Virus record (IMG/VR): IMGVR_UViG_2695420600_000004
Origin: a virus
Taxonomy: Duplodnaviria > Heunggongvirae > Uroviricota > Caudoviricetes
Length of the DNA stretch: 26,045 nucleotides
Direction: 5' to 3' (one strand)
Positions 22,307 to 25,300 of the stretch are shown piece after piece (position 1 is the stretch's first letter; every line of letters starts with the position of its first letter). The position numbers are program-made.

Positions 22307-25300
22307 TCATCCTCTCCGGATAAGGCACGGGCGTAATCTGCCAGTGTTTTCTTGTTGGTTGCTGCACCATCCTCTTCCTGCAGGCTCGCCAGCAGTGCAC
22401 TGAGATCCAGCTGCCAGCGGGAAATACTGATGCGCAGCGCCGCCAGCGCATAAACGAAGCAGTCGAGCGCCTCATTGCGTCGCTTTTTGCTGTCCCACAG
22501 TATTTTTTTCCTGCCATCCACCCATTTTTCGACCTGCTCTTCAGCAGTCAGCTGCTGCGCTTCGGTCAGATCAAAAATATCCGGGTTATTCGGGAAGTGA
22601 ACGGCACCGGGAAGCGGTTCATCCCCTTCCGGCGTCAGTGTGAAGCGGTTATAAATCTGCTCTTTCGCGGTATCCGTACCGATTTCGGTAAGGTAAACCC
22701 CGTTTTTGTTTCGCTTACGAGGCATGCTGGCCACCGGCTTACCGTAGACGGATGCCCCTTTAATGGGGATCACCCGGAACAGCCCATGCTTTTTCGAGCG
22801 TTCATACACAATGGTCGGGTCAATCCCGCCAATATCCCAGCAGATACGGGATATCGACATTTCTGCACCATTCCGGCGGGTATAGGTTTTATTGATGGCC
22901 TCATCCACACGCAGCAGCGTCTGTTCATCGTCGTGGCGGCCCATAATAATCTGCCGATCAATCAGCCAGCTTTCCTCACCCGGCCCCCATCCCCATACGC
23001 GCATTTCGTAGCGATCCAGCTGGGAGTCGATACCGGCGGTCAGGTAAGCCACACGGTCAGGAACGGGCGCTGAATAATGCTCTTTCCGCTCTGCCATCAC
23101 TTCAGCATCCGGACGTTCGCCAATTTTCGCCTCCCACGTCTCACCGAGCGTGGTGTTTACGAAGGTTTTACGTTTTCCCGTATCCCCTTTCGTTTTCATC
23201 CAGTCTTTGACAATCTGCACCCAGGTGGTGAACGGGCTGTACGCTGTCCAGATGTGAAAGGTCACACTGTCAGGTGGCTCAATCTCTTCACCGGATGACG
23301 AAAACCAGAGAATGCCATCACGGGTCCAGATCCCGGTCTTTTCGCAGATATAACGGGCATCAGTAAAGTCCAGCTCCTGCTGGCGGATGACGCAGGCATT
23401 ATGCTCGCAGAGATAAAACACGCTGGAGGGGTCATCCGGCGTCCATTTGAGGCCAAACGGCGTCTCTTTGTCGCCAAATTTAAGATACTGCTCCTCCCCG
23501 CAGTGCGGGCAGGCAACATGAAAACGCATAAAATGCGGGGATTCACTGGCTGCACGCTCAATCTGGCAGGTGCCTCTCACTTTGGGCGTGGAGCCACGGA
23601 TGGACTTTGGCCAGACCGAGCCTTCAATACGTTTGTCGCCAAGGAACGTCGGAGAGCCTTCCTGTTCAATATCCTCATCAAAGGCAGCAAGTTCATCATA
23701 ACCCGCCACATCCACCGACTTTTCACGGTAGTTTTTTGCCGCTTTACCGCCCAGGCACCAGAAGCCACGACCATTGGAAAAACGCTTCATAGTGAGCGTG
23801 TTATCCCGGTGCTTTTTGCCATACCACGGAGCCAGCGCCAGCAGCGACGGAATATCGCGGATGGTCGGCTCAACGTGGGTTTTCATAAAGTTCTCGGCAT
23901 CACCATCCGTCGGCAACCAGATAAGTGTGTTGCGCTGCTTATGCTCTATAAAGTAGGCATAAACACCCAGCAGCATTTTGGAATAACCGACACGGGCAGA
24001 CTTCACCACATTCACCTCACGGATGTAGTCGCTGCCCATCGCATTCATGATGGCCCGCTGAAAGGGCAGTGTTTCCCAGCGCCCTTCCTGGTATGCGGAT
24101 TCTTTCGGGAGATAGTAATTAGCATCCGCCCATTCAACGGCGGTCTGTGGCTCCGGCCTGAACAGTGAGCGAAGCCCGGCGCGGACAAAATGCCGCAGCC
24201 TGTTAACCTGACTGTTCGATATATTCACTCAGCAACCCCGGTATCAGTTCATCCAGCGCGGCTGCTTTGTTCATGGCTTTGATGATATCCCGTTTCAGGA
24301 AATCAACATGTCGGTTTTCCAGTTCCGGAAAACGCCGCTGCACCGACAGGGGGATCCCGTCGAGAATACTGGCAATTTCACCTGCGATCCGCGACAGCAC
24401 GAAAGTACAGAATGCGGTTTCCACCACTTCAGCGGAGTCTCTGGCATTTTTCAGCTCCTGTGCGTCGGCCTGCGCACGCGTAAGTCGATGGCGTTCGTAC
24501 TCAATAGTCCCTGGCTGGAGATCTGTCTCGCTGGCCTGCCGCAGTTCTTCAACTTCCCGGCGCAGCTTTTCGTTCTCAATTTCAGCATCCCTTTCGGCAT
24601 ACCATCTTATAACGGCGGCAGAGTCATAAAGCACCTCATTACCCTTGCCACCGCCTCGCAGAACGGGCATTCCCTGTTCCTGCCAGTTCTGAATGGTACG
24701 GATACTCGCACCGAAAATGTCAGCCAGCTGCTTTTTGTTGACTTCCATTGTTCATTCCACGGACAAAAACAGAGAAAGGAAACGACAGAGGCCAAAAAGC
24801 CCGTTTTCAGCACCTGTCGTTTCCTTTCTTTTCAGGGGGTGTTTTAAATAAAAACATTAGGTTACGGCGAAGAAGAACGGAAACGCCTTAAACCGGAAAA
24901 TTGTCATAAATAGCGAAAACCCGCGCGCCTTCCGCCCCGTAACCTGTCGGATCGCCGGAAAGGACCCGCAAAATGATAATAATTATCATCTACATGTCAC
25001 AACGTGCATCTACGCCATCAAACCACGTCAAATAATCAATTATGACGCAGGTATCGTATTAATTGATCTGCATCAACTTAACGTAAAAACAACTTCAGAC
25101 AATACAAATCAGCGACACTGAATACAGGGCAACCTCATGTCAACGAAGAACAGAACCCGCAGAACAACAACCCGCAACATCCGCTTTCCTAACCAAATGA
25201 TTGAACAAATTAACATCGCTCTTGTTCAAAAAGGGTCCGGGAATTTCTCAGCCTGGGTCATTGAAGCCTGCCGCCGGAGACTGTGCTCAGAAAAAAGAGT

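What the first reader, a model, noticed from the sequence alone, without database searches (positions are those of the whole stretch)
24926..24937. cosN 12-mer diverges from lambda while its flanks are almost identical
Canonical lambda cosN is GGGCGGCGACCT. This element reads GGGCGGAAGGCG, with 5 of 12 positions different, all in the distal half. The surrounding 60 bp, including cosB R1-R3, differ from lambda at only about 3 positions, and gpA and Nu1 look essentially lambda-identical. A changed nicking site with an unchanged terminase could impair cos cleavage, or reflect a natural cos variant.
Basis: partly seen in the sequence, partly recalled or inferred. Interest (0 to 1): 0.45.

Follow-up and report, generated by a model that had tools for sequence, protein, structure and literature searches.

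The report
Natural variant lambda cohesive-end site
The lambda-like prophage in this window carries a minority, naturally occurring version of the 12-base sticky-end site; the changed bases lie in the half of the site that published genetics shows terminase barely reads, so it is an ordinary variant rather than a defect.

Summary
On the minus strand, window 24926-24937 reads GGGCGGAAGGCG where lambda has GGGCGGCGACCT. The differences are at bp 7, 8, 9, 10 and 12. cosQ, R3, R2, R1 and the CG pairs at both nick sites are identical to lambda. Nu1 and gpA each differ from lambda by 3 residues.

It is neither an error nor decay. The same 12-mer occurs in 159 complete E. coli genomes, in 51 IMG/VR contigs, and in two phage records. 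One of these, PhiR46_1, is a complete N15-like phage-plasmid with intact lambda-type head and tail genes. Among lambda-type terminase loci sampled without reference to cos, 7 of 77 carry it.

No Nu1 or gpA residue tracks the allele. My early lead, gpA T466I, failed, and one identical gpA sequence occurs with both alleles.

Feiss and co-workers (PMC4669245) already reported that bp 7-12 vary naturally and that changes there have minimal phenotypic effect, because Nu1 bound at R3 positions the bottom-strand nick. This is therefore a further, unusually diverged (5 of 6) allele of a known kind.

The "impaired cleavage" reading is not supported. Cleavage of this exact allele has not been tested directly. 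Interest is low.

The parts
24926..24937 (-). cosN cohesive-end 12-mer, variant allele 5'-GGGCGGAAGGCG-3'. bp 1 is window 24937 and bp 12 is window 24926.
   Evidence: Read directly and aligned to the lambda cos junction.
24924..24939 (-). 16-bp cosN: the 12-mer plus the conserved CG dinucleotide flanking each predicted nick site. The top-strand nick is predicted between 24938 and 24937, and the bottom-strand nick between 24926 and 24925. Rotationally symmetric bp number 8 of 16, against 10 of 16 in lambda.
   Evidence: Sequence. The definition of cosN and of the flanking CG pairs comes from PMC9026076 and PMC4669245. The symmetry was counted by hand from the sequence. The nick positions are inferred by homology and were not measured.
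24961..24967 (-). cosQ, GGGTCCT (packaging termination signal), identical to lambda 48473-48479 and at the same spacing from cosN.
   Evidence: The role of cosQ is taken from PMC4669245.
24873..24888 (-). cosB R3 (bp 50-65), AGGCGTTTCCGTTCTT, identical to lambda. This is the Nu1 binding site that positions gpA for the bottom-strand nick.
   Evidence: The R3 extent is from PMC9026076.
24830..24872 (-). Interval between R3 and R2 that holds the IHF site I1 in lambda. It has 5 substitutions relative to lambda, at bp 71, 73, 78, 97 and 102.
   Evidence: The position of I1 between R3 and R2 is from PMC4669245. IHF binding was not tested.
24814..24829 (-). cosB R2 (bp 109-124, inverted), AGAAAGGAAACGACAG, identical to lambda.
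24773..24788 (-). cosB R1, CTGTCGTTTCCTTTCT, identical to lambda. It lies 1 bp closer to R2 because of a 1-bp deletion near lambda bp 137.
24203..24748 (-). Nu1 (small terminase subunit, TerS), 181 aa, 3 substitutions relative to lambda.
22303..24228 (-). A (large terminase subunit, TerL, carrying the cosN endonuclease), 641 aa, 3 substitutions relative to lambda (T151S, D185E, T466I).

Best explanation
This is the cos site of a lambda-like prophage carrying a minority natural allele of cosN.

Proposed mechanism, inferred by homology to lambda:
1. Nu1 binds R3, R2 and R1 of cosB, with IHF bending the DNA at I1.
2. This anchors gpA over cosN.
3. One gpA nicks the top strand between ACG and GGGCGG, reading the conserved left half.
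4. The second, Nu1-anchored gpA nicks the bottom strand 12 bp away. That position is set by its distance from R3, not by the sequence of bp 7-12.
5. Virion DNA would therefore carry 12-nt 5' overhangs: GGGCGGAAGGCG at the left end and CGCCTTCCGCCC at the right.

Both ends come from one duplex, so they remain complementary and cyclisation is unaffected. Predicted duplex stability is about the same as lambda's.

An essentially lambda-identical terminase is therefore expected to cut this site normally. The five clustered changes are a tolerated allele that has spread by recombination among lambdoid prophages, N15-like phage-plasmids and satellites.

Shown here: the site's anatomy, the allele's recurrence, and the lack of co-variation with terminase. 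Inferred: that cleavage is efficient and occurs at the homologous positions.
For: 1. Anatomy. cosQ, the left half, both CG nick flanks, R3, R2, R1 and the spacing are all lambda-like.

2. Recurrence.
- 159 of 5426 complete E. coli genomes, at 170 places. The canonical allele is in 4484 genomes at 8406 places.
- 51 IMG/VR contigs.
- 7 of 77 lambda-type gpA loci sampled without regard to cos.
- Escherichia sp. E1V33.

3. Complete phages. PhiR46_1 (PV340565) is a telL/telR phage-plasmid with every lambda-type head and tail gene intact, and its record gives ECOR13 as host. YDC107_1 is classified as a Ravinvirus. Both carry the allele.

4. No terminase co-variation.
- T466I splits 16 I: 13 T among variant carriers and 7 I: 22 T among canonical carriers.
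- No Nu1 or gpA position segregates with the allele.
- An identical gpA (lambda plus I459V) occurs with the variant in L021 and with the canonical allele in L127.

5. Context independence. The allele sits beside at least 3 cosB types and many cosQ-side contexts.

6. Helper and satellite in one contig. In L021 a helper prophage cos carries the variant. A satellite-type cos 12.2 kb downstream carries the canonical allele. Satellites of this cos type lack TerL where enough sequence is held (L008), so one TerL presumably serves both.

7. Literature (PMC4669245).
- bp 7-12 differ naturally in N15 (9, 12), phiD326 and Gifsy-1 (8, 9, 11).
- Right-half mutations have minimal phenotype; C11G is silent while G2C lowers yield about 10-fold (Xu & Feiss 1991).
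- The asymmetry depends on cosB (Hang et al. 2001).
- Terminase measures its cut 47 +/- 2 bp from R (Higgins & Becker 1994).
- Lambda TerL uses cosN-N15 as well as its own.

8. Duplex stability. GC content is 10/12 in both alleles. Nearest-neighbour Tm is 46.3 C for the variant and 47.8 C for lambda.
Against: - There are no cleavage, burst-size or virion-end data for this exact allele.
- Published tests covered single or double substitutions and the 2-bp N15 difference. None covered a 5-of-6 replacement.
- Rotationally symmetric bp fall from 10 to 8 of 16.
- PhiR46_1's proficiency rests on GenBank record fields, because I found no paper describing it.
- The window's own prophage has a broken J gene. 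It is therefore not evidence of an active phage.
- The allele is in the minority: about 2% of E. coli cos places and 2 of 70 phage records. A modest fitness cost cannot be excluded.
Confidence: 0.85

Rival explanations
1. Defective cos. The five changes cripple bottom-strand nicking, and the site is a decaying relic in a cryptic prophage.
For: The window's prophage is damaged elsewhere. J has an in-frame TGA and a frame change, and tfa changes frame. The allele is rare relative to the canonical one.
Against: - The identical 12-mer, not a scatter of degenerate versions, recurs in hundreds of independent contexts with intact Nu1 and gpA, and in complete phage genomes.
- One-step derivatives are rare. 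Across the samples searched I found single examples of CAGGCG, CGACCG and AGACCT. That pattern points to constraint rather than decay.
- The rest of the cos core is invariant.
- The literature says bp 7-12 are tolerant of change.
Confidence: 0.05
2. Co-evolved specificity. The variant cosN needs a matching change in terminase, for example gpA T466I, which was shared by the first four carriers I examined.
For: T466I was present in the window, PhiR46_1, YDC107_1 and APEC E14033, and absent from lambda and PhiR63_1. In the pattern-derived set there is weak association (Fisher p = 0.03). A Nu1 71-148 / gpA N9D-S21A haplotype accompanies 11-14 of 29 variant carriers, against 1 of 29 canonical carriers.
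Against: - 13 of 29 variant carriers have T466, and 7 of 29 canonical carriers have I466.
- In the gpA-anchored sample there is no association (p = 0.36).
- No residue in Nu1 or gpA is diagnostic of the allele.
- An identical gpA occurs with both alleles.
- The associations that do exist weaken with distance from cosN, as ordinary linkage would.
- The counts are not phylogenetically independent.
Confidence: 0.03
3. Selected compatibility type. The two discrete end sequences are kept apart by selection. A chromosome packaged from a cos of one type to a cos of the other would have 5 of 12 mismatched ends and could not cyclise. The alleles would then act as an isolating or anti-piracy mark among co-resident lambdoids, phage-plasmids and satellites. 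This can hold alongside the best explanation.
For: - There are only two common alleles, five changes apart, with very few intermediates.
- The variant is about 44-fold enriched on plasmids of roughly 46 kb, which look like N15-like phage-plasmids: 16/170 versus 20/8406 places.
- A 2-bp mismatch already lowers yield about 4-fold (PMC4669245).
Against: - The neighbouring bp 13-45 are just as invariant, so the scarcity of intermediates may simply reflect region-wide conservation and recent common ancestry.
- In L021 the helper and its embedded satellite carry different alleles, which argues against a matching requirement.
- No mechanism is known by which end sequence alone would be selected.
- The samples are not phylogenetically independent.
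Confidence: 0.1
4. Sequencing or assembly error at 24926-24931.
For: None, beyond the fact that read support cannot be inspected here.
Against: Exactly the same six bases appear in hundreds of independent public assemblies.
Confidence: 0.01

Closest known systems
cosN of bacteriophage lambda (GGGCGGCGACCT)
   Same: Identical in the following: left half GGGCGG; the CG pairs flanking both nick sites; cosQ; the R3-I1-R2-R1 architecture and the cosN-to-R3 spacing; the adjacent Nu1 and A genes, at 98.3% and 99.5% protein identity.
   Different: Five of the six right-half bases differ (7, 8, 9, 10, 12). Symmetric bp number 8 rather than 10 of 16. The sticky ends would not anneal with lambda's.
Natural right-half cosN variants of lambda-like phages: N15 GGGCGGCGTCCG, phiD326, Gifsy-1, mEp213/LLS GGGCGGCGCGCT
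   Same: Variation is confined to bp 7-12, with the left half and nick flanks conserved, as described in PMC4669245 and PMC12315714. G at position 12 is shared with N15.
   Different: Those alleles differ from lambda at 2-3 positions and come with diverged terminases (N15 TerL is 65% identical). This one differs at 5 positions and sits beside a 99.5%-identical gpA. I could not read Vahanian et al. 2017 (Virology 509:140), so I cannot say whether it lists this allele.
cos sites of Gram-negative PICIs and helper-embedded satellites
   Same: They carry cosQ and cosN nearly identical to the helper's, beside a different cosB-like region (PMC9026076). Satellites in L008, L013, L041 and L048 carry this same variant 12-mer.
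   Different: The window's site has a full lambda cosB and its own Nu1 and A genes. It is a phage cos, not a satellite cos.

Membership tests
lambda-like cos site (cosQ-cosN-cosB) | 12-bp cohesive-end segment with the conserved left half GGGCGG | tested here: met
   Window 24932-24937 on the minus strand reads GGGCGG.
lambda-like cos site (cosQ-cosN-cosB) | Conserved 5'-CG-3' pairs flanking both nick positions | tested here: met
   The sequence reads ACG|GGGCGGAAGGCG|CGC. The criterion comes from PMC4669245.
lambda-like cos site (cosQ-cosN-cosB) | 7-bp cosQ upstream of cosN at lambda spacing | tested here: met
   GGGTCCT at window 24961-24967, in an ungapped alignment to lambda 48473-48479.
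lambda-like cos site (cosQ-cosN-cosB) | Complex cosB: R3 at bp 50-65, R2 inverted, R1, with an IHF region between R3 and R2 | tested here: met
   R3, R2 and R1 are identical to lambda, and the cosN-to-R3 distance is unchanged. IHF binding at I1, which has 5 substitutions, was not tested.
lambda-like cos site (cosQ-cosN-cosB) | Nu1 and A terminase genes immediately downstream | tested here: met
   Nu1 at 24203-24748 and A at 22303-24228, both intact.
lambda-like cos site (cosQ-cosN-cosB) | Canonical lambda right half CGACCT (bp 7-12) | tested here: not met
   The window has AAGGCG. According to PMC4669245 this is not a defining feature, because bp 7-12 vary among accepted members.
lambda-like cos site (cosQ-cosN-cosB) | Terminase makes staggered nicks giving 12-nt 5' overhangs in virion DNA | not testable with these tools
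   This needs virion DNA end sequencing or an in vitro cos-cleavage assay.
terminase-cosN co-evolved specificity pair | A terminase residue or haplotype that segregates with the cosN allele | tested here: not met
   No Nu1 or gpA position is diagnostic, and an identical gpA occurs with both alleles.

The most novel reading that the evidence does not exclude
The lambda-type sticky end is dimorphic in nature. There are two discrete, mutually non-annealing end sequences, CGACCT and AAGGCG, with almost no intermediates. They are shared across integrated lambdoids, N15-like phage-plasmids (where the variant is about 44-fold enriched) and helper-embedded satellites. On this reading the dimorphism is maintained by selection as a cohesive-end compatibility type: hybrid chromosomes packaged between unlike cos sites cannot circularise.
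Probability: 0.1. Interest if true: 0.5.

Novelty: new member of a known kind. Interest (0 to 1): 0.2.

Why it matters
The finding has three modest uses.

- It is a natural test of the functional-asymmetry model of cosN. A terminase 99.5% identical to lambda's sits beside a right half changed at 5 of 6 positions, apparently without harm. That fits the view that the bottom-strand nick is measured from R3 rather than read from sequence.
- It matters for annotation. Tools that look for GGGCGGCGACCT will miss about 2-9% of lambda-type cos sites. DNA with these ends will not anneal to lambda ends.
- It does not open a new question unless the two-allele pattern proves to be selected.

Tried and rejected
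1. gpA T466I as a specificity switch. It was shared by the first four carriers but rejected on larger samples.

2. Searching the held literature for the 12-mer or its complement returned only unrelated plant and Streptomyces papers.

3. Vahanian et al. 2017, the survey of natural cosN sequences, is not held. Whether the allele is already catalogued stays open.

4. No paper on the PhiR phage series was found. PhiR46_1's viability therefore rests on its GenBank record.

5. Looking for the window's source genome in complete E. coli assemblies gave a best match of 99.2% over 3 kb, with no exact source.

6. A species-wide genome scan for other right-half alleles returned only 11 loci. All were Escherichia or Shigella apart from four assemblies from unrelated organisms that carry the canonical lambda-type cos (three identical to lambda over the stretch compared) and probably reflect contamination.

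7. Assuming the cos-to-Nu1 distance is fixed broke my first gpA extraction, because of a 1-bp deletion. I re-anchored on the Nu1 start.

8. My own recollection that the cosB-proximal half of cosN is the sequence-critical one was wrong. PMC4669245 corrected it.

Full report
**What is in the sequence**

Window 24926-24937 on the + strand is CGCCTTCCGCCC, so the minus strand reads GGGCGGAAGGCG. The window, reverse-complemented, is colinear with lambda from bp 48141 across the cos junction to bp 15398, at 94.3% nucleotide identity. It is therefore a lambda-like prophage, or a permuted phage genome, with cos in its interior.

Aligned to the lambda cos junction, the 12-mer sits exactly where lambda has GGGCGGCGACCT. 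It differs at bp 7, 8, 9, 10 and 12, while C11 and the left half are unchanged. Several elements are identical to lambda and at the same spacing from cosN:

- cosQ (GGGTCCT, window 24961-24967)
- the CG pairs flanking both nick positions
- R3 (24873-24888)
- R2 (24814-24829)

R1 (24773-24788) is also identical to lambda. It lies 1 bp closer to cosN because of a 1-bp deletion between R2 and R1.

In the core from -30 to +45, only -17 and +35 differ outside the 12-mer. Nu1 has 3 substitutions and gpA has 3.

A run of five mismatches in six columns is locally unusual. There are 9 such places in 15.8 kb, and 7 of them lie in the divergent tail genes.

**Is it real and natural?**

I used a 51-nt query that can only seed a megablast word if the variant bases are present. 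It found the allele in 159 of 5426 complete E. coli genomes, at 170 places, 16 of them on plasmids. It also found it in two phage records, PhiR46_1 and YDC107_1. The same query with the canonical 12-mer hits 4484 genomes at 8406 places. So about 2% of such cos places carry the variant.

An exact-pattern scan of IMG/VR found 51 contigs with the variant. A scan with the six right-half bases left free returned, in its first 120 loci, essentially two alleles: canonical (112 among the newly fetched loci), variant (4 new, plus re-hits), and one CGACCG.

To remove any bias from requiring exact flanks, I also collected 80 loci by gpA protein similarity. Of the 77 with a readable cos, the alleles were:

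| Right half (bp 7-12) | Loci |
|---|---|
| CGACCT (canonical) | 68 |
| AAGGCG (variant) | 7 |
| CAGGCG | 1 |
| CGACCG | 1 |

. A further one-step allele, AGACCT, is in phage PhiR70_1.

PhiR46_1 is a complete 46.3-kb N15-like phage-plasmid. It has telL and telR annotated, ParA/ParB, and every lambda-type head and tail gene intact. Its record gives E. coli ECOR13 as host. YDC107_1 is classified as a Ravinvirus.

A sequencing error or private decay is excluded.

**Does the terminase co-vary?**

The first six genomes suggested that gpA T466I tracked the variant. Larger samples rejected this.

| cosN allele | I466 | T466 |
|---|---|---|
| Variant | 16 | 13 |
| Canonical | 7 | 22 |

. In the gpA-anchored set the association is not significant. 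Scanning every variable position of Nu1 and gpA found no diagnostic residue. One gpA sequence (lambda plus I459V) occurs with the variant in L021 and with the canonical allele in L127.

A Nu1 71-148 / gpA N9D-S21A haplotype accompanies 11-14 of 29 variant carriers, against 1 of 29 canonical carriers. The association weakens with distance from cosN, as expected for linkage to the lineage in which the allele is common. The window itself lacks that haplotype. These counts are not phylogenetically independent.

**Context independence**

The variant lies next to at least three different cosB types and many different cosQ-side sequences, and the canonical allele shares those same types. It also occurs in helper-embedded satellites. 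These carry primase, SSB, an E-like capsid gene, a D-like decoration gene, AlpA, cos and a Nu1-like gene but no TerL, and they are inserted in the helper's gene E (compare bioRxiv 10.1101/2022.07.18.500453).

In L021 the helper cos carries the variant, while a satellite-type cos 12.2 kb downstream on the same strand carries the canonical allele. Only 239 bp beyond that second cos are held, so its satellite identity rests on its flanks. If both sites are functional, one TerL serves both alleles. This is an inference.

**How it most likely works**

The explanation comes from established lambda work, as summarised by Feiss et al. 2015 (PMC4669245):

- Nu1 bound at R3 anchors gpA, and terminase measures its cut 47 +/- 2 bp from the R site (Higgins & Becker 1994).
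- cosN is functionally asymmetric. Mutations in bp 7-12 have minimal phenotype; C11G is silent, whereas the symmetric G2C lowers yield about 10-fold (Xu & Feiss 1991).
- The asymmetry depends on cosB (Hang et al. 2001).
- Natural right-half variation is common: N15 and phiD326 at bp 9 and 12, Gifsy-1 at bp 8, 9 and 11. I confirmed N15 as GGGCGGCGTCCG. mEp213/LLS is GGGCGGCGCGCT.
- Lambda TerL uses cosN-N15 as efficiently as its own.

All five changes here fall in that tolerant half. The left half, the nick-flanking CG pairs, cosQ and the R3 spacing are untouched. The predicted product is virion DNA with ends 5'-GGGCGGAAGGCG and 5'-CGCCTTCCGCCC. These ends are complementary to each other, with the same GC content as lambda's and a similar predicted Tm (46.3 vs 47.8 C). 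Rotationally symmetric bp fall from 10 to 8 of 16, counted from the sequence.

My initial recollection that the cosB-proximal half is the sequence-critical one was wrong, and the paper corrected it.

**What remains uncertain**

- Nobody has tested a 5-of-6 replacement.
- I could not read Vahanian et al. 2017, the dedicated survey of natural cosN sequences.
- The 12-mer string does not appear in the held literature.
- I found no paper on PhiR46_1.
- The window's own prophage has a broken J gene. It is not itself evidence of activity.

**The most novel reading not excluded**

Only two common alleles exist, five changes apart, with single-copy intermediates. The variant is about 44-fold enriched on plasmids of roughly 46 kb, which look like phage-plasmids. 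This could mean the end sequence is a selected compatibility type.

Two observations weigh against that. bp 13-45 are just as invariant, so the pattern may only reflect region-wide conservation and shared ancestry. And L021 shows discordant alleles in a helper and its embedded satellite. I give this reading about 10%.

**Verdict**

The site is a further, unusually diverged member of the known class of right-half cosN variants. Interest is low (0.2).

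Noticed in passing
window 5049-9136 (- strand): The tail-tip gene J is interrupted. There is an in-frame TGA at 8933-8935, at codon 68, where lambda J has Phe in ...GVTVVFRAGEQEQ.... There is also a change of reading frame around 7256-7304. The prophage in this window probably cannot make infectious particles on its own, unless these lesions are assembly errors.
   Followed up: partly
window 798-1316 (- strand): The tail-fibre assembly gene tfa matches lambda Tfa residues 1-41 in one frame (1314-1192) and residues 62-192 in another (1196-804). This suggests a frameshift near 1192-1196.
   Followed up: no
L006 26,400-37,700; L008 1-6,400; L021: [quoted passage not shown] L008 encodes primase, SSB, an E-like capsid protein, a D-like decoration protein, AlpA, its own cos and a Nu1-like small terminase, but no TerL (Pfam scan). 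The L006 element, read from its RefSeq annotation, adds an integrase and shows no Nu1-like gene or cos. In L021 the helper cos has AAGGCG and a satellite-type cos 12.2 kb downstream has CGACCT.
   Followed up: partly
E. coli complete genomes: The variant allele is about 44-fold enriched on plasmids: 16 of 170 places, against 20 of 8406 for the canonical allele (Fisher p about 1e-18). Most of those listed are about 46 kb replicons resembling the N15-like phage-plasmids PhiR46_1 and YDC107_1, which combine telomere and partition genes with lambda-type head and tail genes.
   Followed up: partly
L182, L183, L184, L185: Canonical lambda-type cos sequence appears in assemblies of Raphidiopsis brookii D9, Aeromicrobium sp., Archangium violaceum and an Alicyclobacillus fastidiosus 'plasmid unnamed3'. 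Three of the four are identical to lambda over the stretch compared. These are most likely lambda or cosmid-vector contamination.
   Followed up: no
L268 (PhiR70_1), L243, L239: Rare one-step right-half alleles occur beside lambda-type cos and terminase genes: AGACCT in phage PhiR70_1, CGACCG in L243 and CAGGCG in L239. They are partial intermediates between the two common alleles.
   Followed up: partly
window 24830-24872 and about 24801: The interval that holds the IHF site I1 in lambda carries 5 substitutions (bp 71, 73, 78, 97, 102). A 1-bp deletion near lambda bp 137 shortens the R2-R1 spacing by one. PhiR46_1 and YDC107_1 have the same 1-bp shorter cos-to-Nu1 distance.
   Followed up: no
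window 25137-25838 (+ strand): To the right of cos the lambda genes are replaced by a YlcI/YnfO-family ORF (25137-25370) and a DUF1398 ORF (25413-25838), going by the annotation of the closest E. coli matches.
   Followed up: no
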